Positions 13,365 to 62,570 of a stretch of 64,000 nt of DNA are shown here, piece by piece (within the stretch, counting starts at the first letter, position 1; each line of letters begins with the position of its first letter). The stretch is taken from positions 17,856,001 to 17,920,000 of the forward strand of contig OX597818.1 in NCBI GenBank assembly GCA_951406725.2, read 5' to 3'. The translations under genes were made by a program, and so were the position numbers. The notes below the pieces were generated by a model. The model made no database searches and was not told the origin of the DNA. It was given only the letters and a program-made list of their open reading frames with translations. The DNA is from Octopus vulgaris. Its lineage: Eukaryota.

Positions 13365-13581
13365 CGAGGCAGTTTTGGAAAGTTCCTGACTTTTGATGAA
13401 AGAAAATACAAGAGGATCAGTTAATTATGATTTTATTCAACATATTCCCCCCTAAGATTCACAAACTTATTGAAGCAATCCTTCAGTTTTTCTAAGCCCT
13501 GTAAAAGAACTCAAAAGATTGGGTCCCCAACTAGGCCTTTTGTAATACCCTTAAAGCCAGGGACTTTTCAGCACCCTCTCG
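13365..13581. mobile_element. mariner-derived MITE
   Basis: TA-CGAGGCAGTTTTGGAAAGTTCCTGACTTT...AAAGCCAGGGACTTTTCAGCACCCTCTCG-TA; a partial second copy at 19358-19441. Confidence 0.8.
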
Positions 13582-14292
13582 TATATATAGGGGGCATGTA
13601 TGTATAAGTCTTGTGCTTAATAAGTTTGATTCAGCTCTACATTTCTTAGATTCTCTAGGGTAGGACACGTTCACCTCATCAGATGTTCGGATAACTATTA
13701 CTTTTACCAAATGAGAAGAATATGCTTCACTGCAGAGGTCTAATAAAACCAGAGCAATGTTCGTTGTTTTCGTTAAAAGACCAGATCCATTTCTGTGCTG
13801 CATTTTCTATATTCTCTCAAAGATTTGATCCATTCTATTGGTTATCCCCCCTTCTTTTTTAGCTTTTTTTTAAACACCCCAGATTGGAATCTTGTCTACT
13901 AATTGCATAAATAATCTCAGTTAATTGAAATTTTACGACTCGTTAATTTGAATAATATAAAAGCATTGAGGTGAGGGAATGTGTAGTGGAATATGAACGA
14001 AAGAAAATGAATGAGGAGAGCTGAAAGTTGGATGAAAGGAGAAAGACGTAGTGAATGCGAAGGAGATAACGGTAACTTCAATATGAAAATATGACTTCTT
14101 CAGAATAAGACAATGCGGAACCAATTATTGATATTAATTTATTTCTCTAATTGATCTTTAATTGCCCGTCAATAAATCCATATGATTGTTGTATTTGTTT
14201 TAAATTAATCTTCCACCGGTTACCTTTCATGGGGTCCGTATCACTGTTTAAAACAAATATTGTCTGCCGTGGTTTACTTCGAGAGGTTCATG

Positions 14293-16044
14293 TTATTGTG
14301 TATGTCTAACATTATCTGCTATGGCTTTTCTCACTGCAATGTGGCCAGACAATATCTGCCTGGCTTCACTTACTGAACATTTATTGATACCAATCAAAAG
14401 AGCTGTGGGTAACACTTTTGGTGTCCTCTTCGCTATTTGTGTACGTCCGCTGATAGGTTGACATAACTGTTCCTGTGATAATTCATCGGAATCGTACAAC
14501 ACACGCAATACCTGTTTCTCTGCCTCTTCTTGACTCAGTTCTGTGAAATCTGTTAAAATTCCAATTGCTCTGTGGTAAAGTTTGTTATTACTTAGTTTCA
14601 AGTCCACCATAATATTCTGAAAAACTTTCCCCTTTAAAATATGTGCTCCAGTAGAAATTGCGTTGAGGACCAATTTAGCAGCAAATTCACAAAATGCTGT
14701 TGACCATTCTTTAGCAACTTTACAATTTATTAAATCGGAGATTTCATTCCAAGGCATTTCAAGATTAATAAATGAATTATTTATTTGTAGTTGGGGTTTA
14801 GTTTTTCCAAAGGAATTTAAATGAATTTGTATTGTTTTACATTTAGATAAAGATGGTGAAGTTAGGGTAACATCTCGTTCGTCGTCGTTTAAAACAACAA
14901 TCAAATCACTTTCTTCGAAATGCTTAGCGACAACTTCATTAAAATATTTCAGCGATATATCTGACCCTCTATTTTGGACACTGAGATCCCCTTCTTGGTT
15001 AGCCAATGTATGATAACCCCCATCAAGATATACATTTACATCCGTTGGATCTGACCCAAAAGTTGGACAACACTCCGAGGCGTCAATTAAGCTCATGATA
15101 CCGATGCTGTCATGACCAATGTAATAGAGATGGCCGTTTGACTGGAGACATGTTCCAGATAATTCTATCGCCTCTGCTATCTGAGCTGACTTAGAATAAA
15201 CACTCCGACAGACAGCTTGATAGCCAGCAATTATGTTAAATATCGAAGGCATCGTTAAAGAATTAAAACCTCCCAGAGACTGCAAAAGAGCTGGAATAAA
15301 AATGCTTTCTAATATAATTTTTGTAATCGATCCACCTTTCATTCGACTTGAACCACAAATAGCTTCAGGCCCGACAATCGGGTTAATTAGAAAGGCCTTA
15401 CCTTCTGCAACAACTGGAAGATATGATTTCATAACATCGTAAAAGCTCTTCCCTCCCCATTTTTCGATGCTGGTTTTCCTTGACAGGTTGCTAGGATTAA
15501 ACCCAATTAGAACCGGCGTGTACTTTGTCAAATGCTTGATGCAATAGTCCAACTGTCCGGCCACGAACGGCGCTGAAAGTCCACAAGTAATGCCTACATA
15601 TAGTACTTGGCTTTTCTCCACCGTTGCTTTCTCCAGTAAATCCGCACCTAATTGAGGATCATCTTCGTAAAGTTCTTGCGAAGTAAACAGTGCTTCGTCC
15701 CCTCCAGCAATTATGTAACGGAAACACGGTTCATTCGATCCCGTTTCTTTCAGTCTGCTGTTCATGGCTCTAGCCAAGAGAAAGGCCAACCTCCCTGACG
15801 TACCGCAACCGGAGAGGACAACTGCACTTCGGACAGGGTCTTGCATGAGAGACGTCGCAAGTTGTTGTACGGTAGCAATTGTATTCAGTACAACATCGCT
15901 GAAAACGTTTTGATCCTTGTATTTTCCCCAACCAGAAAATATTTCTGAATCACATGATTCTAAGAGTTTCACTATTTCTTGAGGTGTTGACACATCAATG
16001 TTTGTTGTAATTGGGTTTCTCCTTTCTGTTACTGGTTTCTCCAT
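14293..16044 (-). CDS. GCKR: Glucokinase regulatory protein-like (double SIS domain, GKRP/MurQ family), single coding exon, 583 aa
   Basis: Uninterrupted ORF with PVTERRNP, LSGCGTSGRLA, IIAGGD, GLSAPFVAGQLD, GFNP, GPEAICGSSRMKGG, KLVLNAISTGAH and MVDLKLSNNKLYHRA, colinear with vertebrate GKRP. An in-frame TGA two codons upstream of the ATG fixes the start. Confidence 0.93.
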   Translation of the reverse strand: MEKPVTERRNPITTNIDVSTPQEIVKLLESCDSEIFSGWGKYKDQNVFSDVVLNTIATVQQLATSLMQDPVRSAVVLSGCGTSGRLAFLLARAMNSRLKETGSNEPCFRYIIAGGDEALFTSQELYEDDPQLGADLLEKATVEKSQVLYVGITCGLSAPFVAGQLDYCIKHLTKYTPVLIGFNPSNLSRKTSIEKWGGKSFYDVMKSYLPVVAEGKAFLINPIVGPEAICGSSRMKGGSITKIILESIFIPALLQSLGGFNSLTMPSIFNIIAGYQAVCRSVYSKSAQIAEAIELSGTCLQSNGHLYYIGHDSIGIMSLIDASECCPTFGSDPTDVNVYLDGGYHTLANQEGDLSVQNRGSDISLKYFNEVVAKHFEESDLIVVLNDDERDVTLTSPSLSKCKTIQIHLNSFGKTKPQLQINNSFINLEMPWNEISDLINCKVAKEWSTAFCEFAAKLVLNAISTGAHILKGKVFQNIMVDLKLSNNKLYHRAIGILTDFTELSQEEAEKQVLRVLYDSDELSQEQLCQPISGRTQIAKRTPKVLPTALLIGINKCSVSEARQILSGHIAVRKAIADNVRHTQ

Positions 16045-16424
16045 GATTCACACGTATTTCATTGAATGTTTAACATATGCTGCAGTAAAATATGACTCCA
16101 CCCAACAAACGAACTCCCTCTTGATCAATGTGCCCGCCTTTATCAGAAACCCGTTCCAAAGGTCACGAACAGTAAATTTCATAAACAAAAATCTATGTGG
16201 TGTAAGGGAGGTAACTGCAATTGAATAAAATCTAAATCTGTGTTAAAGTTGTTCATGAGACAAAAGTCGGGTTTGATCAACTTGACACAATTGAATGTAT
16301 TCCAGTCATGACCATCCCATCTTTGGGAAATCTGGAATTACATTATCCAATGTGTCCCTCCTTTCTAAGATTATAGGAAGTGGTCATGGGGAAATATAAG
16401 AATTATTACAATTAATATATATTA

Positions 16425-17830
16425 ATAGGCGCAGGAGTGGCTGTGTGGTAAGTGGCTTGATAACCAACCACATGGTTCCGGGTTCAGTCCCACTGCGTGG
16501 CATCTTCGGCATGTGTCTTCTGCTATAGCCCCGGGCCTTGTGAGTGGATTTGGTAGACGGAAACTGAAAGAAGCCTGTCGTATATATATATATATATATG
16601 TGTGTTTGTGTGTCTGTGTTTGTCCCCCTAGCATTGCTTGACAACCGATGCTGGTGTGTTTACGTCCCCGTCACTTAGCGGTTCGGCAAAAGAGACCGAT
16701 AGAATAAGTACTGGGCTTACAAAGAATAAGTCCCGGGGTCGATTTGCTCGACTAAAGGCGGTGCTCCAGCATGGCCGCAGTCAAATGACTGAAACAAGTA
16801 AAAGAGAGTAGAGAGAGAATATATATTTGTAATGAGATAAAAAAACCAAGGCTGAGTAGATTTTAGAACATTTATATATTCTTTTATTTGTTTCAGTCAT
16901 TTGACTGCAGCCATGCTGGAGCACTGCCTTTAGTCGAACAAATCGACCCCAGGACTTATTCTTTGTAAGCCTAGTACTTATTCTATTGGTCTCTTTTGCC
17001 GAAGAATTAAGTTACGGGGACATAAACACAACAGCATCGGTTGTCAAGCGATGGGGGGGGGGCAAGCACACACGCACACATATATACATATATATACATA
17101 TATACGACGGGCTTCTTTCAGTTTCCGTCTACCAAATCCACCCACAAGGCTTTGGTCGGCCTAAGGCTATAGTCGAAGACACTGTGTGTCTGTGTTTGTC
17201 CCCCCACTATCGCTTGACAACCGATGTTGGTGTGCTTACGTTCCTGTAACTTAGCGGTTTGGCGAAAGATACCGATAGAATAAGTCGATTTGTTCGACCA
17301 AAGGCGGTGCTCCAGCATGGCCGCAGTCAAATGAATGAAAGAAAAGAAGAAAAAAAAAATATATATAAGTTAAAAGTTATGGCCGGTTATAAAGTGACCA
17401 TTGGTTTCGCACCTATAAAGCGTTTAGGATTATTGGATTATAGGCGCAGGAGTGGCTGTGTGGTAAGTAGCTTGTTTACCAACCACATGGTTCCTGGTTC
17501 AGTCCCACTGCGTGGCACCTTGGGCAAGTGTCTTCTACTATAGCCTCGGGCCGACCAAAGCCTTGTGAGTGGATTTGGTAGACAGAAACTGAAAGAAGCC
17601 CGTCGTATATATGTATATATATATATATGCGTGTGCGTGTATGTTTGTGTGTCTGTGTTTGTCCCCCTAGCATTGACAACCGATGCTGGTGCGTTTATGT
17701 CCCCGTCACTAAGCGGTTCGGCAAAAGAAACAGAATAAGTACTGGGCTTACAAAGAATAAGTCCCGGGGTCGAGTTTCTCGATTAAATACGGTGCTTCAG
17801 CATGGCCGCAGTCTGAAACAAGTAAGTAAG
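16425..17830. mobile_element. Cluster of SINE family A copies: 16425-16810 (+), 16882-17181 (-), 17182-17345 (+), 17441-17830 (+)
   Basis: Direct alignment of head, microsatellite and tail segments among copies. Confidence 0.88.
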
Positions 17831-30271: not shown

Positions 30272-32627
30272 GATATAGGTAGTTAAAAAGAAGGTTAGCA
30301 ATGATGATAATGATGGCAGTTCACTTGTGTAACGACAAACTCTTCCTCTTTCAGCTCCTTTGATCCTTTTATTTTCATTTTTCTCCCCGCCTCTCTCTCT
30401 GGAATAGTAGAAGAGAGACAGAGAATGCACTAAAAAAGAATGACATAAATAGAGTGATAGGGATGATGGCGGTGCTACGTTTGTGTGGAATCAAACGCTT
30501 TGTTATTCTTCTTTCAGACTCTCCTTAATCCTCCTCCTTCTCTCCCTCGCCCCTCCCCCACACACAATAAAACATATATATCAAAGACATGAGATTTTAA
30601 TAATATTGTTTCTAATATAAGCACAAGGCTTGAAAATTGATGGAGTTTAATCAACCAAATCAACCCTAGTACTTAATTGTATTTTATCTTATTTATTATC
30701 CCCGAAAGAATGAAAGTTAAAATTGACCTCAGTGAGATAAACCAAGAAGCCTCTGTTGGCTGCATTTTTGAATACATTACCACCGCCCATTGTTAGAAAA
30801 TTATAGTATCTTCTATCCACCGAACGATTTCTGATCAATTCTATGCTTTTTGTTGGAGCTCGTCTATTTACCGGTTATATGTGTTCTATCTCATCTTCTG
30901 CTAGTAGCATTATTTTCCTTAATAATTCTATTTAAAGTTGCTATACCTCCAAGGCTATATCTTATTTCAGCTTGGTGATTAAATCTAATTTTATTAGCCA
31001 GTGTTGAATCGACAACATACAGTTGAGAAATTATCTTTCATCTCTCTCACTAGTCAGAACATATTCAATATGCAAAGATAACTTCCTCAAGACATACTGA
31101 TACAAAAAGGAACGTTGCACATGCAGTTCGGTTATTCGGGCCCCATTGACGCAAATGAATATGATGAGTTGTATGGTCTAATATTACTCTTAAAATTAGA
31201 AATACCACTATGACCTAGATGGATCATAATATTTAAGCATTTCAAATATCATCATTAAAAAGCTGGACTTCATAGCAGCAGCTATTAAATAAGCTATCGT
31301 TGGATTTCTCGGAAACAAAGTATTCTGCTCCACAAAAATAAGATATTGCGTTAAATTTTCAGCAGTAATGGTACTTAATATTAAAAAAAAATGATTAATT
31401 GTTTATGTCTTGTATCCTATAATATCGTTCTCAACATTTCAATATCTCATGATATTTCTATCATCTTTTTCTTTATTTTATATTTTCTCCGTGGCACACA
31501 TTCATTTATTATATCTCAATGCGCTTTTTCTTGAGTTCCATCTTTTTAATCTTATTACAGCTATCCGTCTTAAATCAATTATTCTTCTTTCTCTTTGTTC
31601 TTCAGTTTCCTTTTACTAATTTTATAACAACTCTTTGCCTTCAGTCCTCCATTCATTTCTTTGCTCTTGACTCTCATTAACAACTCTTACTGCCATTTTT
31701 TGCCTCACTTCTGTTCTTCGATATCTTTGTTCTTCAGTTTTAATTTACACTCTTTGCTGCTCTATATTTTGTACGTGCTCTAATTATCTCTTGTTCCTAA
31801 TTAACAGCTGTCTCTGATCTTCTTATGCGTTTCTTTCTATTTCGCTGTATTTATATCTGATCTTCATCAAGTGTCTCTTGAGATCGTCTGAAATGATGAC
31901 TTTGAACATCATGAGATCATCTTGCTGCTGTTTCACCTGTAGTCTGACTAACACTAACGTATCAATTATTCTATATTTGCTGCACGTCGTTCATTCACTT
32001 CTCCAAGATCTTCACACCTTCTTCATTCCATGGGTGAAAATAATGTCAATATATTTGATATATTCTTTTTGTGTATTAACTTTCCTCTCTTTCTTTGCAT
32101 CTTTACTATGCTTTTCATTACATAATCTGCTGTTTTTCTTTATCAAGGAAAATGCCGTCAAAATTGGCGACAAACTTCTTTTATTTTAAATTTTGCATTT
32201 GCGTCATATTTTCAGATATCTGAAAGATATTTATTTTTTGTTCGATATTTAACTTTTGATGTTCCTTGTTGTATTCTGGACACTAACACAAAGACGGAGA
32301 TACTTTTGTCTTCAAGGTCTCAACCTGTAAATGAAATGAATTTGTTAAGATCGATTAATTTGCTTTTACACAAACATACATGATTGTTGCAACTCGATAT
32401 TGAGTTGTTCTCTTAAAGTAGCACTGATGTGGTTTTTTCAGTCCTGTTAGGAATCGACACTCTTTCGCACACATGAGACAACGATGGGCGCCTCTTGCAG
32501 TAGGTGTTCAGAGAGTAGCCACCCACGCCGACATGCCTTCATTTCAGCATGGAATGTTTCATTGAGTTTTTGCTTTCTACGGTTATGGCCAGCCATAATA
32601 TGCAACACAAAATAGAGATGTCATAAA

Positions 32628-32691
32628 TCATACATACACACATTCATACACACATACATACATACATACATACATACATACATACATACAT

Positions 32692-32724
<33 letters not shown>

Positions 32725-32761
32725 TACATACACACATACATATATACACATATACATACAC

Positions 32762-32792
<31 letters not shown>

Positions 32793-33199
32793 AATACATA
32801 CATACATGCATACATACATACACACATACATACATACATACATGCATACATACATACATACATACATACATACATACATGCATGCATGCATGCATGCATG
32901 CATACATACATACATACATACATACATACACACACACATACATACATACATACATACATACACACACACACATAAATACATACATACATGCATACATACA
33001 TACACACATACATACATGCATACATACATACATACATACATACGTACGTACGTACGTACATACATACATACATACATACATACACACATACATACATACA
33101 TGCATGCATACATATATACATACATACATATATACATACATACATACATACATACATACATACATACATACGTACGTACGTACATACATACATACATAC

Positions 33200-33230
<31 letters not shown>

Positions 33231-33302
33231 CATGCATGCATATATACATACGTATGTACATATGCACGTACGTTCATACATATATATATATATACATATA
33301 TA
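32628..33302. repeat. ~670-bp compound (TACA)n microsatellite
   Basis: Directly visible; source of the MYVC/HTYI ORFs. Confidence 0.95.
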
Positions 33303-34881
33303 TAAGGAGAGAGAGATGGGGGGGAGAGAGTTACATACTTAGATATATCCATACATATGCACAACTTTAGCCCAGAATCATTTCATGAAAAGCAAAGAGA
33401 CTGACATCATTGTTACGTTCATATAGCGGTTAGTACTTGTAACGTCATTCCATCTTTTGCTATTCACCATCTCCCGTTTAGCCTTTATAAACATACATAC
33501 AAACTTACATACAAATAAACATATACACATATAGTGGATCTTGCATGCATGAAGTGGATTCGATCCACCATAGCCAAATTTAAATTAACACTGTAACAGA
33601 ACTTTTCCCACGGTGGAATAAAATTTTTTCTGTGGCAGCGGTTTTGACATTCGCCAGATTGCCTTTAGCTAGGTCAAAATAATGTCTTCACTACTTGACT
33701 CTTTCTAATCTCTTCTACTCCACCAAAAGCTAGAATAGAGATAACAAGACCACCAACTAAATCTAGTGTTCTCAATGATATGTCTATCCTTCTGGATAGT
33801 TATAAAAGCATAAACCCCAAGCAAAAAGTTAGTCACTTCGGTGACGACTCAACGAAGTAGTCACTTGGCGACAACTGAGCGAGGCGGCTCGTGACAACTC
33901 AATTAGTTAGGGAACTGACTGCTAGAATCATGATCACAAGGAATGCAGCTACTAAAGACAATGGTCAGCGAAAGAAATGAAATTTACTGGCAGCAACTGC
34001 GAGACAATGTCCCACATCCCTACAACTCTCACTAGCTCTAATTCTGTTCTCTTAGAACATCATCTATCGCTATCTGTGGATTACTACTAACGATTCGTGT
34101 ACGCCAAACTAAACAAAAAAAAAAAAAAATTCTACCACATCTAACTTTCTTTCGCATGCTCTCGGATTTTATGACCTGCCCGACGAGGCAAGGTATTTTC
34201 AACGTAACGGTAAACAAATACTTTCTTAAAACTTCATGCATTGTTCATCTTTCACATCCTACAACATGCTGTTATAACAACAAATTTTTATCGTTACAAC
34301 TGTTGACTCCGACATTTCATATTATTGTGTTCCTAATCAATCCTTAACGCTACAAACACATACGAAACACACGACTTTAGTATATATATTATCTGATGAA
34401 TAGAAACTTAATTACACTATGTAACATGATTTTTGTCCTTAGGTAGCTACTGTTATTTCCTGTTTGATTACCCCTGGAAAGTATGAAAAATGGCTAATAT
34501 TTCCTTCAAACTTTAACTTTTGTCACATTTCTGTAAAACCCTAAAGAATCCCTCTCAAAACATGGCTATGATACTCCCCACTACTCTTGCTCATGATCAG
34601 AAGTGCACATTATTGTCAGTCATTAGGGGACATGCTGAAGTGGTTAAGGTCAAGTAACTGACAAACAGCAGAATATTTGTGGTAACGATATTTCTGCTTC
34701 AGCAACTCAGCGCAGAATCTGTCTGAAATGTAATGGTAAATAGGTCAGTTTCAAAACATTGATATCCAAGTCACAAAAAAAAAAGAAGAAAAGAACTTTG
34801 TTACACAGTATTATATCTAGATAATGAAACAGAGAGAATAGATCATGCCGTTGCTTTATGCACACAAAATATTCATGCACG

Positions 34882-41345: not shown

Positions 41346-41989
41346 TAAGATCCAATTTTAGCAGCATTTCGTAGAGAAAGGATGTAATTCTTGAGCCGGA
41401 AGTCCATGAAGTATAAAATCAATGTGTATCGATGCATCGCACAAAATGATTGGTTATTAAAACGGCCACTTATTTATATGATTATTATATTAGTCGTTAC
41501 ACTATAGAAGATATGACTTTCTTCGAGTTATAGTACATGTATTGTTTGTCGTTGCAGCACACAAACTGTCTCTAGCTCCATGGACCATTGTGTATGGTAA
41601 GCTTCATCTATGAGTTACTACTAAAAGGAAGTATAAGAGTGTCTACGTAAATAGAAACAGTAAAACTTCTTGTATCGAAGAAAGATGTGTATTCTTGGTA
41701 GGAGCCGAATTACCAAAAAGAAAGAGCTGGCTTTTGCTTGCGTATTTATATTCTTCGTAACTAAATTAAATTAAAATAAAATAAAAAGGATTTTCCCACT
41801 ATATCGGCCTTAATCTGTGCATGATTCGTGAAAGATCAAAAAGTCAGTTTATTCTCATACCTTTCCTAATGCAACAGGCGAAATTAATAGGCCGATGGCT
41901 TGTGTAAAGGTTGTGAATTAGATTTCTAATCCTAGCTTAGAAATTTGGTTATTGTTCGCTACAAAAGTAAAAAAGTGCCAAAACCTTAA

Positions 41990-44830
41990 GTACGGGTCCA
42001 TCCGGCAACATTCTAGTCTTAGCTGATGGCTAAACCTAATAGACACGAAACGAATGGCTCTTTTAAGGACGAACCACCATTGGTTATTAACCACGGAACC
42101 GGTTAACGCCCTCTGTACTAATTCCTTAATCCGGCTGCAGTATGCTTCACAAGTCAAAATAGACTTGTTCAGCTTCCAGTAATCGGATCCTCTCTTAACT
42201 GCACTATTTACGTTCAGCCTACGCTTAACCATTCCATGGTCCGTGTAGGATACTGGAACAAGCTGTGCACAACTAAAGTTAGCTTTATCTTTAGCTCTTA
42301 TCGCTATCCTATCTAAGTAAGAGTTGAACCTTCCGTCGCCATTCATCCAGGTCCACTCTGGGACATTCGGATGTTCAAGTCTGTAACAATCTGCTTGCTG
42401 AAATCGCTTAAGCAGATCTATAAGGCGTGATTTCGTTTTCCTATCAATCGAGCCAACGCTATCGATGCGTGCGTCAACGATAGCGTTATAGTCACCTAAC
42501 ACCACTAATGTCTTCAACGTTACGAGAAAGTTCTCTAGGCGCCGATAAAAATCAGTTTGTAATCCTCTAGCACAGGGTGCATAGATTCTGATCAACCTGA
42601 AGGCTCTACCACTGTACATCATATCAAGGACGACCAGCCCACCTTCAGGGTCCACACAGACTGTACTCGTCTGCAGTCAAGCCTTTTCGGACGAGTACTA
42701 CTACACCCCCTCGACCTCCGGTCTGGCTAGGAGACATGATTTTCTGCTATCCTTCCAGAAGGGGCAAGATGGTTTGTAGACTGTCCTGCTTGGTCTCTGT
42801 AGCAACCATCACACGTATATCATGTGATCTGAGGTCGTTGAGGAGGCAAGTTTGCTTCCACTTCGAGCTCAGACCACATACATTTAAGCACCCCAAGTTA
42901 AGTGAAGCCATAAACCTGGGGGAAAAAACAAAGGCTCTACTTACCCTTATTTGGAGATGCTGGGGTTGACCTCACCAAACGTAAGTCGGCCTCCTCCTTT
43001 CTGTCCTTCTCCGGGCATTCGGGCGGGTCTGTGCGCCTCCTGATGCCTCTCGAACGCCTATCCTTCATCTGCCTGTATAAATTTTCTCCCATCCAGGCAC
43101 GTTTCATATGTGTATCGTCTAGATGCAAAAATTTCACTGTATGGTATAGTGGAATTTGTCTTTCTAAATAATCGTCTATAGAGTCATATTCAATTAAAAT
43201 TATTTCTTCATTCTTTTGTGCTTTTTCCGGGGCGGTGGGGCGGGGTCTTTTTTGTTATCTGTGGTGTATGGTTGTCTTTTTTCCTGTGGAGGTATATGGG
43301 TGGGGAAGGTGCATGTGAACGTTTGCGAATTGTCATGAATTTCTCTTCGGACACCTCCATGGTGTCGTCTGGGGACGTTATGTTTGAAACACAAGCTGCC
43401 TCAGAAATCAGGTGGGCGGGGCTTTTATTAATGTGGGGTTTTGTGTATGCTGGGGTTGGGTCTTTTCATTACTTTGTTTGGGGGTGGCACCACAACAGGG
43501 TGAGTGGGAACATTTGCTTTTGTGGGGGCTGGTGTATGTGAAGGTTTGGGGATGTTTTGAATAGTTGTGGGGACTAGTGTCTGTAACAGTTTTTTTCTCT
43601 TTTTCTTCTTTTCCTCCTCTTTCTTTTTTATTTCACAATCGCTTCGAATGAGGCCTTTTTTTTTCCACATTTGAAGTAAGTAACCTTTTTACCCTCCGCT
43701 TGAACTCGGAGGGTAACTTTTTCACCCACGCGTACCCGGTCCAGAAGGTTTTCATTGCCTTCCCGTGCCCCTTGGATGATGGCTGAAATGCTCTGCCCTG
43801 TCCAGTATTGGGAGGCAGAGTATGAAATCTGGAGGAATTGTATTTTGTCTGTCCTGTTGTACAACAGGGCAGCCACCACCTCCCGAGGGTCTATTTCCGG
43901 TGGCACTTCCGTCACCCTCACACAAAAAGTTCGTCTTCCCTTGTAAGAGGGCAGAAGCACCGCCTCCTTCGTCTTCAAGGGGCTAACCGAGTACTCCTGC
44001 GCTAACTTTTCCGTCTTAAAACGAACTTCAATGGTTGCAAAAACCTCGCCCATTGCGATATGAGTAATATCATTCCATACAGGAGCGAGGTATTTCTCAA
44101 TAACATTTTCTTTGAGATGTTTAAAACGTCTTCCTTCCATACAGAAGGATCTGAAGACCACAGTTCTCTTCTCTATTTCTTCAGCATCGAACCCGAGTGT
44201 TACTTTGATATCTTCGTCTTCCTCCTTCATCTTGGAAAATATTCTTTCAAATCTTCATTGTTCAACACAATGTCTTCGTTTCCACGGCGGCAACGTCAGA
44301 AAACTTTTTGCTATTAACATTTCTCATTGAGAGTGCTTTTTTCTTTTAAAATTTCGACCGACACGCTCGGTCAAAATCATAGACGCACAAAAAACAGGTT
44401 TGTAAATTGTTCACCAAATTAGTTCAGATCTTCCTCCACCCTCTTTACGGGGCGTGGCACAAGAGAAACCTACGCTGGCTTGAAAAAAGTTTCAATCGCA
44501 CAAAAAAAGTTTTTCGCCTTACCTTCTCGATAGAGAAGCATAAAAATCCAGAGTACACGTAATCCAGACAAACGGTACTCCAATGCACACAAATAGTTAA
44601 TTCACAATAACAACGAATCTTTCCCCCCACCCCCTTTGGGGGGAAGCATGACACAAGGAAAAGCTTACAACGGCTTGAAAAAAGTTTCAATGCCTAATTG
44701 AAGTTAAAAAGGTTTTTACACCTTACCTTCCCTTTAGGGAAGCATAAAAATCCCAAGACACAATAACAAGGTACGTCTTACTTGCTCCAAAATAGCAGCA
44801 ACAGTAACTGGAAGCACTCTCCAAAATGGA
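41990..44830 (-). mobile_element. L1/Tx1-clade LINE, 5' half only (5' UTR, ORF1 with zinc knuckle, APE endonuclease; RT absent)
   Basis: ORF1 43628-44230 ends in a frameshifted FKCGKKGLIRSDC knuckle followed by a Pro/Lys-rich linker; ORF2 begins near 42910 with LGCLNV, ATETK, RGGVVVL, IRIYAP, VLGDYNA, SYLDRI, TDH and YWKLN; 5' UTR has a duplicated GGCTTGAAAAAAGTTTCAAT unit. Confidence 0.88.
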
Positions 44831-47909: not shown

Positions 47910-50852
47910 CTCTCTACCCACAATAACTAAAAAGACTACAGCAACTCAGGGAAACTAAGCCAGAACAACCTGCCATCCTCTACACACCATCATAAACTGC
48001 GAGCAGGGTACAAATTGTTGTCCTTAAATGCTCGCAGTTTATGCAACAAAATACATTTGTTCAACGCCTACGTCAGAAGTGTTGACCCTGACTTCATCAC
48101 TGTCACGGAAACATGGGCGCATTCCTTACTCTGTGATGGGGTTTTCAACATTACGGGGTACAACCTCTTCCGTAAGGACCGCACTAACCGCCGTGGTGGT
48201 GGTGTGATGGTCTACGTTCGTTCAAATTTTTTGGTAATTCCTTGTGCCGATTTGAACGAATCACAAGAAGAAGTTTTTTTCTGTGACGTGCGTATGACCA
48301 TGTCAACACTCCTGCTTGGCGTTGTTTATCGTCCCCCAAGTTACCATCGGGACACACAGCTTTGCAATGTCCTCCGAGCTGCTGCCAGGAAAACAGCCAC
48401 TTATGTGTTTATTGCAGGCGATTTCAATCATCCTGAGATCGATTGGGAGACCTTCCATTGGCCACAGAGTGCAAACGATTTTGTTGAGCTTGTGCTGGAC
48501 TCAAACTGGTCACAAGTATTCACCTCTCCAACAAGAGGCGACAACACCTTGGACCTGCTCTTCACCACAACTCCTGAAGCAGTTATCAATTGCACTACGG
48601 AGGAACCTCTAGGTGACTCTGATCATGCTATGATCATCGCCAATCTGGCTCTTGCGGGCAACAAAAACCTGAACCATCTCCAATCTGCTTCCTTCGATTG
48701 GAAGAGAGCAGATTGGAACCTGTACCACACTGAACTACAGCACCCAAACTGGCGTGAATTCTACAACTCTGGAGATGTGAATACTATACTCCAGAGTATC
48801 CTGGACTCAATATGGGCAGCATGTGCAGCATCAGTGCCACGTAAACAAAAAAAGAAGAACCGCCCCAAAAGGGCAATTTGGGAAACTTCAGCGGTCCGAC
48901 TTGCCAGGAGGGAACGTCGGACTGCTGAACGTGAATACAGGTTGCATAAATCAGACACCAACAGGAAGAAGCGGAATAAATCCTCCAACCATCTCAAGCA
49001 AGTGACAAAAAAAGCAGTGCTTGAATTTGAACAGTGCATAGCAGCCAATCCTGACTGCAAGGTTTTCTGGAAATATGTGCACTCAAAGCAGAGACCTCAC
49101 TCTCCAGTGGGCCCTCTTCGCAACCCTCACACAAACCAGATCACTGACGACCCCAAGGAATGCGCAGAACTCATTGCCGAGTGCTATGCAAACATATTCA
49201 CTGTTGAAAGTCAAAATGTACCATCTTCACCATCACTAACAGCAAACTCCATAACAACTATGGAATTTACACCTGCAATGCTGCGACGTCACCTTCAAAA
49301 TAAGCACAACTATGCCTCCCCTGGTCTCGATGGAGTTACATACCTGCTTCTCAAACGTGGCAGGCACTTCCTTTTACACCAGCTTTCTATTTTCTTCCAG
49401 TACTGTCTCAACAATGGTGCTACTCCGGAGCAGTGGAAAACTGCCAGTGTCATTCCTCTGTTCAAAAAGGGCGACCGCACATCACCTGTCAACTATCGCC
49501 CAGTCAGTCTCACTAGCTGTATTGCAAAACTGATGGAATCGTGTGTCAGAGAAACACTCTGGAACTTCTGGAGCTCTCACAGTCTCATCCGACCCTCACA
49601 ATATGGATTTGTCCCTAACTCCAGCTGCAGTGACCAGCTTGTCGAGTTCCTTGAGGACATTACTCAGATTACTGACAGTGGCTCATGGGTGGATGTTGTC
49701 TACCTTGACTTTGCTAAGGCTTTCAACTCTGTGCCACACAAAAGGCTTATGGTGAAACTCTCTGCAATGGGTGTGGGGGATGACCTTTTTAACTGGTTGA
49801 AATCCTTCATCCTCAGCCGAAAGGAGGTAGTCACAGTTCTAGGACAGCACTCTACACCATATGAGATGTCATCGGGTGTACCACAGGGATCTGTCCTTGG
49901 TCCCCTCTTGTTTGTGGCATACATTAACGACATAGATGCCAATTTAAAGAATGCCACAGTATTGAAATATGCAGACGACATCAAGCTGTACCTTGAAATC
50001 AAGAGGACAGATCCTGATGTCTACAACTCTTTCCTGCAATCAGACCTAGACACAATGCAGCAATGGATCACAGACTGGCAACTGAAACTGGCTGTGGACA
50101 AGTGTACCACCATGCATTTTGGGAGAAAAAACCCTGCGTTCACATACTCCCTCCACAACACTGATATCAAGAAATCCTCTTGCGAGCGTGACCTAGGCAT
50201 CACTGTCAGCAGTGATTTGCGTTGGTCAAAGCATATCTCTAAGATTGTCAGGAAGGCCGAGGGTGTCTTGGCATCACTCAGCAGGTCTTTTGTTAGCCGC
50301 TCTCCAGCCATCTATTTAAAACTGTATACAGCTATGGTACGACCACACTTGGAATTCGCATCATCAGTTTGGAACCCCTATCTTGCACAGAACATTGACC
50401 TCCTGGAATCTGTCCAGAGACGTGCAACCAAACGCATACCCTCCATCAGACACCTACCATATTCTGAGTGCCTTGTTTCCCTGGGCATGGATTCACTGAA
50501 GCTCCGGCGTTTGGCGACGGACTTGGTAAACACCCACAAAGTTATCAACCACCTCACCAACAACAACACTGAACACCTTTTTGATCTCCATGTGTCTAAC
50601 ACACGTGGACATGCCTACAAAGTCAGAAAACAATACAGCTCCCATGACTTTCGGAAACATTTTTTCACGCTCAGAGTTGCTGAAGCATGGAATAAACTGC
50701 CTGCGTCAGTTGTTGACTGCCATGACACTGCATCTTTTAAGGCCCTCATGCTTTCCGAAATCCGCCGAAACTACACCTGATTATATATACACTTTAGATG
50801 AGTTGTAGTGCACCTGAGCACTGTACACAATTATTATTATTATTATTATTAT
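47910..50852 (+). mobile_element. CR1-clade LINE, 5'-truncated at the end of ORF1, with (ATT)n tail
   Basis: Contains the intact ORF2 below, a short 3' UTR with stem-loop AGTGC-ACCTGA-GCACT and an (ATT)n tail. Confidence 0.92.
48015..50780 (+). CDS. CR1 ORF2: APE endonuclease plus reverse transcriptase, 921 aa, uninterrupted (frame open from 47931, no ATG at the start)
   Basis: SLNARSL, VTETW, GGGV, VVYRPP, AGDFN, TLDL, SDH; NYRPVSLTS, QYGF, YLDFAKAF, GVPQGSVLGP, YADD, ERDLG, WNKLP. Confidence 0.95.
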   Translation: MLSLNARSLCNKIHLFNAYVRSVDPDFITVTETWAHSLLCDGVFNITGYNLFRKDRTNRRGGGVMVYVRSNFLVIPCADLNESQEEVFFCDVRMTMSTLLLGVVYRPPSYHRDTQLCNVLRAAARKTATYVFIAGDFNHPEIDWETFHWPQSANDFVELVLDSNWSQVFTSPTRGDNTLDLLFTTTPEAVINCTTEEPLGDSDHAMIIANLALAGNKNLNHLQSASFDWKRADWNLYHTELQHPNWREFYNSGDVNTILQSILDSIWAACAASVPRKQKKKNRPKRAIWETSAVRLARRERRTAEREYRLHKSDTNRKKRNKSSNHLKQVTKKAVLEFEQCIAANPDCKVFWKYVHSKQRPHSPVGPLRNPHTNQITDDPKECAELIAECYANIFTVESQNVPSSPSLTANSITTMEFTPAMLRRHLQNKHNYASPGLDGVTYLLLKRGRHFLLHQLSIFFQYCLNNGATPEQWKTASVIPLFKKGDRTSPVNYRPVSLTSCIAKLMESCVRETLWNFWSSHSLIRPSQYGFVPNSSCSDQLVEFLEDITQITDSGSWVDVVYLDFAKAFNSVPHKRLMVKLSAMGVGDDLFNWLKSFILSRKEVVTVLGQHSTPYEMSSGVPQGSVLGPLLFVAYINDIDANLKNATVLKYADDIKLYLEIKRTDPDVYNSFLQSDLDTMQQWITDWQLKLAVDKCTTMHFGRKNPAFTYSLHNTDIKKSSCERDLGITVSSDLRWSKHISKIVRKAEGVLASLSRSFVSRSPAIYLKLYTAMVRPHLEFASSVWNPYLAQNIDLLESVQRRATKRIPSIRHLPYSECLVSLGMDSLKLRRLATDLVNTHKVINHLTNNNTEHLFDLHVSNTRGHAYKVRKQYSSHDFRKHFFTLRVAEAWNKLPASVVDCHDTASFKALMLSEIRRNYT

Positions 50853-56797: not shown

Positions 56798-56935
56798 TTT
56801 ATGTATTTGTTTTGCAAAATTCTTGATGTGAAATCATGTGCTGAAACAGATATTGTTATACTTGGGAATGGTCATATTTTGCCAATTAAACACACACTAT
56901 TATTTGGTCTTTAGTTTAGCTTTATAATAATTAGC

Positions 56936-58696
56936 AAGAAACAAGGCTCCGGGAAAAGATGGCATCCCCTCAGAGATCATCAAAGCCGGCAAAAACACCA
57001 TCCTGCTTCGGCACCTTCATGAGCTTCTGTGTCAGTGCTGGGAAGAGGGTACAGTCCCTCAGGATATGCGGGATGCTAACATCATTACGCTTTACAAAAA
57101 CAAAGGTGACCGTGGTGATTGTAACAATTACCGTGGAATATCTCTTCTAAGCACTGTTGGAAAGACCTTTGCCCGCGTTATCCTGGCCAGGCTACAACTA
57201 CTTGCTTCTCGAATCTATCCGGAATCACAGTGTGGCTTTAGAAGAAGCAGATCAACTATCGATATGATATTCTCCATACGCCAACTTCAGGAGAAGTCCA
57301 GAGAGCAGAGAATGCCATTATATATGGCCTTCATTGATCTAACAAAGGCCTTTGACTCGGTAAGCAGAACAGGCCTCTTCACCCTGCTCCAAAAATCGGA
57401 TGTCCACCAAAGCTGCTGAGGATCATCAAGTCTTTCCATGATGACATGCAAGGCACCATACAGCACAACGGTTCAACATCAGCCGCCTTCCAAATAAAAA
57501 ACGGGGTAAAGCAAGGTTGTGTCCTCGCTCCTACAATGTTTGGCATCTTCTTCTCGCTCTTACTCTCACATGCCTTTCAGACATCAGATGATGGAGTGTT
57601 TCTGCACAGTAGAAGTGACGGGAAACTGTTCAATCTCTCGCGCCTGCGTGCCAAGACCAAAACCAGAAATGTCCTGATCAAGGAGATGCTATTTGCTGAT
57701 GATGCCGCTCTGGTATCACACACAGAAGAAGCCCTCCAAAGGCTCATTAACTGTTTTGAGCAAGCATGTAACGACTTTGGCTTAGCTATCAGCCTTAAGA
57801 AGACCAGCATCATGGGTCAGGCTACATCGGACATCCCAAACATACATATTGGAGACCACAGATTACAAGAGGTGGAGAAGTTTACCTATCTGGGCTCTAC
57901 CGTCACCTACAACCTATCCCTCGACGCTGAGCTCAATATACGCATTGGCAAGGCAGCTGCTGCGATGGCCCAACTCTCCAAACGGGCTTGGGACAACAAT
58001 AAGCTGACCAAGACCACGAAAATGAAGATCTACCAGGCATGTGTACTTAGCACTCTACTGTATGGAAGTGAGACTTGGATGCTATACACATGCCAAGAGC
58101 GTCGCTTAAACATCTTTCACCTGCACTGCCTCCGGAAAATCCTCCGCATCAAATGGCAGAACCATATCCCCAACAAAGATGTCCTCAGGCAAGCAGGAAT
58201 ACCAAGCATGTTTACACTCCTCACACAAAGACGTATGAGATGGCTTGGGCATGTTAGCCGTATGAAAGATGGCAGAATCCCCAAGGACATACTCTACGGA
58301 GAGCTTGCTAGAGGTACTAGGTCTGTGGGTAGACCACTCTTACGTTACAAGGATGTTTGCAAAAGGGACATGAAGGCCTGCAACATCAATATTAGCGGTT
58401 GGGAGGCAGTTGCCGGCAACCGTGGAGACTGGCGACGTACCGTAAAAGAGGGAATACAAAGGAGTGACAGAGAGAGAGAGAGGAGAGAAAAGACGTCAAC
58501 AAGAAACTATGGCATTACAACCAGCCAGGAACAGTCTTCGCTACATTTGCGGTACCTGCCAGAGGGAGTGTTTGTCCAGGATAGGACTACACAGCCACAG
58601 CAGGAAATGTATCAGGACATGAAATGTAAAAGCCGGACTAGACTACTTTATGCGCAACTCCATTGTCTCCCGAGACAAAAAAGGATGCCAACCAAC

Positions 58697-58697
<1 letters not shown>
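56936..58697 (+). mobile_element. RTE-clade (BovB-like) LINE, 5'-truncated, two frameshifts
   Basis: KAPGKDGIP, NYRGISLLS, PESQCGFR, FIDLTKAFD, GVKQGCVLAP, LFADD, LLYGSETW, RWLGHV; C-terminal C2H2-like ICGTC..CLSRIGLHSH in a shifted frame; frameshifts near 57395 and 58480. Confidence 0.95.
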
Positions 58698-58739
<42 letters not shown>

Positions 58740-58749
58740 GTTATTATTA

Positions 58750-58797
<48 letters not shown>

Positions 58798-59104
58798 TAT
58801 CAGATGAGTGAGAAACTGTGCCTGAGTAAGAAGAGAGATTAAAGACAGTGAGGATGAGAAGAACAGAGTCTGACGTGGCAAACTGACAACGTTTCTGTAA
58901 TTCACACTAACACTCTTACTCAACTACTACTCTATTGAAACTCTCATTCTCTCTACATCTCTTTTCTTGAATCATCCCTATTTTGCTCTCAGGAGACCTC
59001 GGACCAGGATATTTTCCATTCATGAATTATTCTTGGCTACATCTGGATCTCCTTGGGAAATTTGATAAATATTCATTAAGAAATGGTGACGTTGTTTCAA
59101 GCGC

Positions 59105-61297: not shown

Positions 61298-62570
61298 TTG
61301 GGTCATCCCATAAATAAAGCAGTTTTTTCAATTTCACGAATTAAAAGTTGGAGGGGGGATGGGATAAACTACCTGCATCAACTTGCTATAAAAGCAGGTA
61401 GTAATTTTACATTGTCCTTATTCTTAGTGCAAGTTTTGAAGAGTGCAATTCGATTTTAACAGTTATTTTTTCAAAGAAGTGACAAAGGAGTATATTTGGC
61501 ATATTTTGCTTTATGATTTCAATAAAGGCAGCAACACAACAGAAAGTGCAAGGAATATTAATGCAGTATATGGGGATCGGACAATAAGCGTAAACCAGTA
61601 TCAAAGGTGGTTCCAGAAATTCCGAGCCAGAAACTACAGCCTAGAAGATGAGCCTCATCCTGGAAGATCTGTAGAGCTCGACAAGAACGTCCTGAAAACC
61701 CTGGTGGAACAAAATCCTATTGTAACTTGAGGAACTAGCAGAGAAGCTTGGATTTGGTCATTCAACGATTTATCAACACCTGCATGCCATCAGAAGTCAG
61801 CAAATTGGGTCAATGGGTTCCTCACAAACTTTCCGAGACTAATCACGTGCAGAGAGTGAATGTGTGCTCTTCTTTGCTTTCACATCTCACCATGAATGAA
61901 CCTTTCTTTGACCGAATAATGACTGGTGACAAGAAATGGGTTCTCTATAAAAATTTTAAGCACCGAAGATAGTGGGTAGGGAAAGGAGAAACAACGGCAC
62001 GCCATGCTAAAGGTCTTCACTCACGTAAGGTGTTGTTATCTGTTTGGTGGGATATGAAAGGTTTAGTCCAATTTGAACTTTTAAACCCAAACCAAATGAT
62101 AACAAAGGAGATTTACTGCGAGTAACTTGAGCGGCTTAAGTCAGTGCTAGAAGGAAAACAGCCATCTTTGCTTTCAAGATGAAAGGTATTCTTCCATCAG
62201 GATAATGCTTGGTCACATACAGCGAGGATGACATTCCAAAGGCTGGAGCAGTCTGAATGGGAAACGATGCCCCACCTACCATATTTGCCAGGCATTGCCC
62301 CATCAGATTATCATTTAAACCCACAGTCTTCAAAATCATTTGGCCAGAAGAAATATGAATTCTGTAGACGAGGTCAGAACAGTACTGGAGGAGTATTTTT
62401 CGTCAATGACAAGTGAATTTTGGAAGAGGGGCCTTGCAAGTCTACAAGATAGATGGAAGAGCATTGTAGAAAATGAAGGAGAGTATATTTTAGATTAAAA
62501 AAGAACTTTATTTATCTTAATTTTGAAAAATAAAAGTACAAAAAACCGTATTATTTATAGGATGACCCAA
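61298..62570 (+). mobile_element. Full-length defective mariner transposon (1273 bp)
   Basis: TA-TTGGGTCATCCCATAAATAA...TTATTTATAGGATGACCCAA-TA; transposase motifs HILLYDFNKG, QRWFQKF, WVPHKL, IMTGDKKW, SVWWD, HQDNA, IAPSDYHL with stops and frameshifts. Confidence 0.95.

What the first reader, a model, noticed from the sequence alone, without database searches (positions are those of the whole stretch)
14293..16044. Invertebrate GKRP with a MurQ-like catalytic motif: regulator or enzyme?
Seen: SIS2 reads IDASECCPTFG (~15055-15087) and SIS1 has GCGTSGR and ELYEDD. Known: bacterial MurNAc-6-phosphate etherase MurQ has DASECPPTFG and EGAED around its two catalytic glutamates, whereas human GKRP reads DGVECIHTFG; glucokinase as a distinct isozyme is a vertebrate feature. 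Inference: this protein may be closer to the ancestral enzyme state, for example acting on bacterial cell-wall sugar phosphates, or it may regulate a different hexokinase. Caveat: both glutamates also survive in non-catalytic human GKRP.
Basis: partly seen in the sequence, partly recalled or inferred. Interest (0 to 1): 0.72.

Follow-up and report, generated by a model that had tools for sequence, protein, structure and literature searches.

The report
Octopus GKRP, a likely cell-wall-sugar etherase
This is the octopus's intact, intron-free copy of the animal 'glucokinase regulatory protein' gene, which likely still does the family's old job of splitting a bacterial cell-wall sugar phosphate, as already measured for the lancelet version, so it is an ordinary member of a known family.

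Summary
Observation confirmed, but the motif is not special. 14293-16044(-) is an uninterrupted 583-aa ORF with GKRP architecture and the only match in the genome. It groups with cephalopod and other animal GKRPs. DASEC.PT[FY][GS] occurs in 115 of 120 top homologues, fish, shark and lamprey included. The human form is the derived one, and 26 of 29 other named molluscs match MurQ better than octopus does. The octopus protein matches lancelet at 19 of 20 pocket residues and lacks the GCK-contact arginines. However, shark, herring and toad also score 19 of 20, so sequence does not give the rate. Best reading: a single-chain etherase, possibly fed by NAGK (one exon found). It is untested in any mollusc in the papers I found. 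Side result: bacteria carry the same fused protein; this scan noted that before on other DNA.

The parts
14293..16044 (-). Single-exon coding sequence, 583 aa, GKRP-family protein (P0001)
   Evidence: one match in own genome
15541..15870 (-). SIS1 (Pfam GKRP_SIS_N, residues 59-168): supplies the phosphate loop and one glutamate; has lost the DASEC motif
   Evidence: E 2.4e-45
15790..15810 (-). GCGTSGR, residues 79-85 (human G106-R112; T109 and S110 are listed ligand contacts)
15658..15675 (-). ELYEDD, residues 124-129; E124 = human E150, E127 = human E153 = second E of MurQ EGAED
15331..15351 (-). SSRMKGG, residues 232-238 (human S257-G263; S258 and R259 are listed ligand contacts)
15214..15228 (-). 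Residues 273-277; A273 and A277 stand where human GKRP has the GCK-contacting R297 and R301
   Evidence: read by eye from the alignment; R297/R301 named
14632..15198 (-). SIS2 (Pfam GKRP_SIS_2, residues 283-471): keeps DASEC..PTFG, has lost GxGTSGR and EGAED
   Evidence: E 1.1e-21
15055..15087 (-). IDASECCPTFG, residues 320-330; E324 = human E348, P327 = human H351 (Pro as in MurQ)
14752..14907 (-). D380-P431 segment with a 50-residue spacer, against 57-59 in 52 of 58 vertebrates; spans the region of human GK contacts D413 and T440-Q443
14320..14619 (-). Lid domain (Pfam GKRP-like_C, residues 476-575) with N486, K488, L489, R492 (human N512, K514, L515, R518)
   Evidence: E 1.1e-31
14138..14143 (-). 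AATAAA 150 nt past the stop; candidate polyadenylation signal, unproven

Best explanation
The gene encodes the octopus member of the animal GKRP family, a single chain of two MurQ-like SIS domains plus a lid, which likely works as an N-acetylmuramate-6-phosphate etherase and likely does not regulate a kinase. Shown: architecture, family placement, and one complete set of pocket residues split between the halves as in the MurQ dimer (SIS1: T82, S83, E124, E127, T153-S157, R234; SIS2: E324, P327; lid: N486, K488, R492), with the mirror site decayed. Inferred from MurQ chemistry (recalled): the open-chain sugar phosphate binds, D-lactate is eliminated and water added, giving GlcNAc-6P plus D-lactate. 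Inferred pathway: MurNAc from digested bacteria is phosphorylated by NAGK, cleaved by this protein, and the GlcNAc-6P enters amino-sugar metabolism. My odds: measurable etherase activity within about tenfold of lancelet 0.7; this being its physiological job 0.55.
For: Pfam GKRP_SIS_N, SIS_2 and C all over cut-off; NCBIfam MurQ model PRK05441 191 bits over its cut-off of 168. AlphaFold model pLDDT 90.5 superposes on GKRP 4bb9 at Z 51.8, rmsd 2.0 over 564 residues. E124, E127, C154, R234, E324, P327, N486, K488, L489, R492 are invariant in 120 of 120 homologues and 55 of 55 bacterial fused proteins. 19 of 20 pocket residues equal those of two Branchiostoma GKRPs; lancelet GKRP has kcat/Km 1493 against 3140 M-1 s-1 for E. 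coli MurQ and does not inhibit GCK with or without S6P. Naegleria GKRP is an etherase comparable to bacterial MurQ (cited). GCK contacts are not kept: A273/A277 for R297/R301, WNEI for L463-F466 (by eye), predicted helical at 432-439; the protein begins at human position 26 and so lacks most of the N-terminal 1-30 allosteric segment. In 23 of 23 bacterial genomes tested with the fused form, it is the best TIGR00274 match and 0 of 23 have a MurQ over cut-off; fused genes lie beside NamZ (L103, L105, L123) or a BadFG-family kinase (L121). The genome has a NAGK exon with AG/GT ends (E 1.1e-13 to human NAGK); human NAGK phosphorylates MurNAc.
Against: No assay of a mollusc protein was found. The pocket does not predict rate: catshark, herring and spadefoot toad also match at 19 of 20, yet frog GKRP is orders of magnitude slower and the vertebrate and gnathostome ancestors give 86 and 105 M-1 s-1. 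It scores below the cut-offs of TIGR00274 (164 of 302) and PRK12570 (175 of 255). Octopods depart from the family at 7-9 of 121 well-conserved columns against a median of 3 in 42 named invertebrates; lancelets depart at 6. Y126 and C326 next to the two glutamates are rare states (Pro in 81 and 50 of 120). The GCK-contact markers are loose: R/K is in only 29 and 33 of 58 vertebrates at the 273 and 277 columns and in 14 and 4 of 44 invertebrates; 14 of 44 invertebrates have a D380-P431 spacer of 55 or more, lancelet 59 (counted). Most of the 76 bacterial neighbours scanned are unrelated to cell-wall sugars, and most of the 23 genomes are assemblies of unstated completeness. Only one NAGK exon was seen, and NAGK's action on MurNAc is from the human enzyme, about 15-fold less efficient than on GlcNAc.
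Confidence: 0.65

Rival explanations
1. A weak or re-tuned enzyme: the pocket still binds phosphorylated amino-sugars but turns over MurNAc-6P slowly, as in frog, or prefers another substrate; it is kept for a binding or clean-up role.
For: Same pocket score in slow vertebrate proteins; octopod changes L125/Y126, C326, A188S, H534R, R337N and more departures than the invertebrate median.
Against: All ten columns invariant across animals and bacteria are intact; lancelet departs almost as often (6 of 121) and is a good enzyme; 4 of the 6 coding differences are silent (a small sample).
Confidence: 0.23
2. An inhibitor of an octopus hexokinase, by the vertebrate mechanism or an independent one.
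For: The fold is that of vertebrate GKRP; the genome has Hexokinase_2 matches at three loci; enzyme activity and GCK binding can coexist (gnathostome ancestor).
Against: Inhibition needs a gnathostome loop insertion and a super-open GCK state that the chordate ancestor lacks; tunicate and lancelet pairs do not interact. R297/R301 and the L463-F466 stretch are not kept; the SIS2 spacer is 7 residues shorter than the vertebrate mode.
Confidence: 0.07
3. Being intronless, it is a bacterial transfer, a contaminant or a dead retrocopy.
For: Single-exon coding sequence, whereas chordate GKRPs share a conserved exon-intron layout; bacteria carry the same fused architecture at 33-38% identity.
Against: Joins Argonauta (support 100) and two unnamed 46%-identical proteins (99) inside the animal clade (96), away from all 31 named bacterial rows (FastTree, no bootstrap); GCGTSGR is the animal state (117 of 120) against GAGTSGR in bacteria (A in 55 of 55); intact orthologues in O. 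sinensis (100%), O. bimaculoides (95%) and Argonauta (71%); no second, parent copy found in the genome.
Confidence: 0.02

Closest known systems
Lancelet (Branchiostoma) GKRP, measured MurNAc-6P etherase (bioRxiv 10.64898/2026.05.08.723886)
   Same: SIS-SIS-lid chain, 41% identity, 19 of 20 pocket residues, no vertebrate N-terminal extension. I could not confirm which Branchiostoma sequence was assayed (supplement closed).
   Different: S233 for T, ELYED for EAPED, DASECC for DASECV; shorter SIS2 spacer (50 against 59); single exon; activity unmeasured.
Vertebrate GKRP/GCKR (PDB 4BB9, 4LC9, 3W0L)
   Same: Fold (Z 47-52); 16 of 20 pocket residues identical to human, both glutamates and the lid lysine included (by eye).
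   Different: Lacks most of the N-terminal 1-30 segment, R297/R301 and the LLFF stretch; Pro for H351, Cys for G107 and V180, Thr for S179.
Bacterial MurQ (PDB 4LZJ, 4S12; TIGR00274)
   Same: Both halves align to MurQ at 30-31%; motifs GxGTSGR, ExxED, [ST]RMK, DASEC.PTFG and the lid lysine are present once.
   Different: One chain with one composite site instead of a homodimer with two; below the TIGR00274 cut-off.
Bacterial fused GKRP-type proteins (Sumerlaeota, Phycisphaerae, Holophagae; L082-L141)
   Same: Same architecture and same split of motifs, up to 38% identity over the full length.
   Different: Keep GAGTSGR, EGAED and DASECPPT; untested; separate from the animal clade in the tree.

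Membership tests
GKRP family (SIS-SIS-lid, fused MurQ) | Three domains GKRP_SIS_N, GKRP_SIS_2, GKRP-like_C in order | tested here: met
   all over cut-off
GKRP family (SIS-SIS-lid, fused MurQ) | Whole-chain structural match to solved GKRP | tested here: met
   predicted model, (TM 0.91; Z 51.8)
GKRP family (SIS-SIS-lid, fused MurQ) | Falls in the metazoan GKRP clade, one locus | tested here: met
   FastTree, 111 rows; 1 match; exon-wise search, lower bound
MurNAc-6P etherase (function) | Complete set of pocket residues (two Glu, lid Lys, phosphate loop, Arg) | tested here: met
   the catalytic roles of the two Glu and the Lys are recalled, since the MurQ mechanism papers were not held
MurNAc-6P etherase (function) | Releases D-lactate from MurNAc-6P | not testable with these tools
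   needs an assay
MurQ sensu stricto (TIGR00274) | About 300-aa single-SIS homodimer above the model cut-off | tested here: not met
   583 aa; 164 bits against 302
Gnathostome GCK-inhibiting GKRP | R297/R301 salt-bridge pair and W461-L464 hydrophobic contact | tested here: not met
   A273/A277 and M430-P-W-N433 (by eye); the arginines are only partly conserved in vertebrates
Gnathostome GCK-inhibiting GKRP | Six-residue loop insertion | tested here: inconclusive
   Its position is given only in a closed supplement; one candidate segment is 50 residues here against 57-59 in 52 of 58 vertebrates, but lancelet has 59
Gnathostome GCK-inhibiting GKRP | Inhibits its own hexokinase or glucokinase | not testable with these tools
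   needs an assay; no complex was predicted
Mammalian allosteric GKRP | N-terminal 1-30 segment with V28 | tested here: not met
   residue 1 aligns to human 26; human V28 corresponds to K3 (offset)

The most novel reading that the evidence does not exclude
Invertebrates run a complete cytosolic salvage route for bacterial muramic acid, NAGK then GKRP-etherase, that turns cell-wall sugar from food and microbiota into GlcNAc-6P and clears phospho-muramyl compounds. That would explain why animals kept 'GKRP' long before it met glucokinase. In octopods the gene is a retro-derived intronless copy that replaced its parent.
Probability: 0.3. Interest if true: 0.6.

Novelty: new member of a known kind. 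Interest (0 to 1): 0.22.

Why it matters
For this gene alone, little: it is already annotated as GKRP-like in two Octopus species and Argonauta, and the enzyme-before-regulator history is published. What remains open is the physiological job of GKRP in invertebrates; the preprint read here gives activity for lancelet but no role in an animal, and no protostome assay in its main text. An intronless single-copy mollusc gene is easy to clone and would extend the measurements to protostomes. If NAGK plus GKRP proves to be a working muramic-acid salvage route, it would link animal digestion or immunity to bacterial cell-wall recycling.

Tried and rejected
No RNA holder listed on record: 14 holders were only guessed to be RNA. 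Their contigs cover the coding sequence without any joint inside it (single contigs 14017-16130 in X2, 14193-16090 in X5, 14182-16092 in X6) and stop between 16090 and 16138 without loose ends, while the large run X15 continues (8 of 20 holders laid). This is a weak hint of an unspliced transcript and is not used as evidence of expression. A splice-acceptor-like tract about 35 nt upstream of the ATG showed no joint. Family searches of the own genome for AnmK and BcrAD_BadFG found nothing; the second is a false negative, since a NAGK exon was then found by pattern, so the AnmK blank shows nothing. An IQ-TREE run did not finish; FastTree was used with 35 chosen homologues, 45 of 90 full-length representatives and 31 of 66 genome loci, unrooted, so the direction between bacterial and eukaryotic fused forms was not tested. 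A look-up meant for Veiga-da-Cunha 2009 and look-ups for Jaeger and Mayer 2008 and Hadi 2013 returned nothing held. Paper searches for octopus or mollusc GKRP and for MurQ with Sumerlaeota gave nothing relevant; the library lacks most subscription papers. No host gene was detected around the ORF by Pfam on 117 other frames (short exons would be missed). No complex prediction was run, as no binding is claimed. Earlier-findings look-ups by sequence and by place were empty.

Full report
Observation. The stretch 14293-16044 on the minus strand is one open frame of 583 codons plus stop; 30 shuffles of the window gave at most 187. The comparison motifs were checked in PDB chains: MurQ DASECPPTFG and EGAED, human and rat DGVECIHTFG, Xenopus DAVECVPTYQ.

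Identity. Pfam gives GKRP_SIS_N, GKRP_SIS_2 and GKRP-like_C. The best solved relatives are Xenopus, rat and human GKRP (E 1e-121 to 1e-103), then MurQ (E 1e-23 to 1e-17). An AlphaFold model from a 27-row alignment (pLDDT 90.5) matches 4bb9 at TM 0.91 and Z 51.8, rmsd 2.0. The protein's cluster holds Octopus sinensis (100%) and O. bimaculoides (95%) proteins already named GKRP-like; Argonauta is 71%. A protein search of the own genome gave one match, this locus. In a FastTree tree of 111 rows the query joins Argonauta, then two unnamed 46%-identical proteins, among molluscs and annelids inside an animal clade (support 96), apart from the bacterial rows. It is therefore a vertically inherited animal GKRP.

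Is the motif special? No. Of the 120 best homologues, 115 read DASEC.PT[FY][GS], including lamprey, sharks and teleosts. Exact DASECPPT is in 36 of 44 named invertebrates and 26 of 29 other named molluscs. The octopod Cys at 326 is a step away from MurQ, as is Tyr126 (Pro in 81 of 120; Ala in 50 of 55 bacterial fused proteins). The top-120 list holds no sequence with the human form, which appears only in the human and rat PDB chains; it is the derived state.

Anatomy of the site. Each half aligns to a MurQ-length protein at 30-31%. SIS1 keeps the GxGTSGR loop, ExxED and SRMK but has lost DASEC; SIS2 keeps DASEC..PTFG but has HDSIG for GTSGR and EGDLS for EGAED; the lid keeps SNNKL. This leaves one composite site. 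I took the 19 ligand contacts listed for 4BB9 in PMC4109836 (passages) plus E150 from PMC10355436 (passages). The octopus protein equals two Branchiostoma sequences at 19 of 20, Pecten and Lottia at 20, and catshark, herring and spadefoot at 19; it equals human at 16 (by eye). Ten of the positions are invariant in all 120 homologues and all 55 bacterial fused proteins. That E324 and E127 correspond to the catalytic glutamates of MurQ follows from the alignments; their chemical roles are recalled from Hadi and colleagues, whose papers were not held.

What is in print. bioRxiv 10.64898/2026.05.08.723886 (parts 1-3 of 4 read: main text, methods, most references; supplements closed) reports that GKRP arose by duplication and fusion of murQ and is generally single-copy in animals. 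It gives etherase kcat/Km of 3140 (E. coli MurQ), 1493 (lancelet), 703, 86 and 105 M-1 s-1 (chordate, vertebrate, gnathostome ancestors) and none for rat. It cites Veiga-da-Cunha 2009 (not seen) for Naegleria and frog activity. bioRxiv 10.64898/2026.05.05.723016 (parts 1-4 of 6 read plus a term search; supplements closed) reports that tunicate and lancelet GKRPs do not inhibit their kinases and that inhibition appears in the gnathostome ancestor through a six-residue loop insertion and a super-open GCK state, with R297/R301 in the interface; 'octopus' and 'mollus' do not occur in its main text. Searches for a mollusc or octopus study found none.

Regulator features. Human R297 and R301 align to A273 and A277, and L463-F466 to WNEI, in a predicted helix with five extra residues. 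The chain starts at human position 26, so most of the allosteric N-terminus is missing. The D380-P431 spacer is 50 against 57-59 in 52 of 58 vertebrates; that this is the published loop is my guess, and lancelet has 59 without inhibiting. The arginine columns are only about half conserved in vertebrates. These markers lean against a vertebrate-type interaction but do not exclude an independent one. The genome has hexokinase exons at three loci.

Pathway context. A pattern search found one exon with AG/GT ends that matches human NAGK residues 119-155 at E 1.1e-13. Human NAGK phosphorylates MurNAc (PMC9477735 passages; PMC11716661 passages, kcat/Km 1.9e3 against 2.9e4 for GlcNAc). So a source of the substrate is plausible, not shown. 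Camponotini ants acquired and express a bacterial murQ (PMC13320244 passages), which shows animals can keep such an enzyme.

Bacterial fused forms. A scan of genome contigs gave 66 loci, 55 with an ORF of 490 aa or more, mainly Sumerlaeota and Phycisphaerae, with the same split of motifs. None of 23 genomes tested has a MurQ over the TIGR00274 cut-off (completeness not given). Of 76 neighbours scanned (chosen by me from 183), three are NamZ, one a BadFG kinase, two amidases, one GH3 and three M23; the rest are mostly unrelated. This supports the view that the fused architecture does MurQ's job. Earlier notes of this scan describe the same family; one describes a case beside a canonical MurQ, which I did not check.

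Gene structure. The coding sequence has no intron, unlike the conserved chordate layout. A Mya isoform lacks the segment around GCGTSGR, which suggests coding introns in bivalves; this is inferred and no mollusc gene model was seen. Retroposition with loss of the parent, or intron loss in place, would both fit. Of six coding differences seen, four are silent.

Verdict. Real, intact and ordinary for its family. Best explanation: a single-chain MurNAc-6P etherase (0.65); weak or re-tuned enzyme 0.23; hexokinase regulator 0.07; transfer or dead copy 0.02. New member of a known kind; interest 0.22.

Noticed in passing
L082-L141 (genome contigs); also L006, L008, L010, L011, L015, L016, L051: Bacteria (Sumerlaeota, Phycisphaerae, Holophagae, Bdellovibrionota) encode full-length fused GKRP-type proteins; 0 of 23 genomes tested have a standard MurQ over cut-off, and some genes lie beside NamZ, a BadFG kinase or amidases. 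The main text of the 2026 preprint does not mention bacterial fused forms.
   Followed up: partly
window 14293-16044: The coding sequence is intronless, unlike chordate GKRP genes; possibly a retrocopy that replaced its parent in cephalopods.
   Followed up: partly
L148:1420-1530 (G000:C14): Exon of a NAGK orthologue, missed by the PF01869 family search and found by pattern.
   Followed up: partly
L149-L156 (G000:C22 about 23.8 Mb and 40.8 Mb; C14 about 21.5 Mb): Hexokinase_2 exons at three loci.
   Followed up: no
window 14443-14445 (residue 534) and 15481-15483 (residue 188): Octopods have lost a lid histidine kept in 112 of 120 homologues (R, Q or L instead) and have Ser for an alanine kept in the other 117.
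   Followed up: no
window 47931-50780 (+): 949-codon open frame with endonuclease and reverse-transcriptase domains (LINE-type); further RT fragments at 56931-57419 and 57356-58807, and a weak endonuclease match at 41918-42676 (-).
   Followed up: no
window 61440-61727 (+): HTH_48 (Mos1/mariner transposase) fragment, E 9e-19.
   Followed up: no
window 16420-17500: Several copies of a short interspersed repeat with TA and TG microsatellites directly upstream of the gene; another high-copy repeat at about 13399-13600 downstream.
   Followed up: no
window 32599-33370: Five overlapping open frames of 190-250 codons on both strands with strong GC skew, as a low-complexity tandem repeat would give.
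   Followed up: no
window 14348 and 15032: Two amino-acid-changing differences in public run contigs (S566F; V338A, the state of O. bimaculoides and Argonauta).
   Followed up: partly
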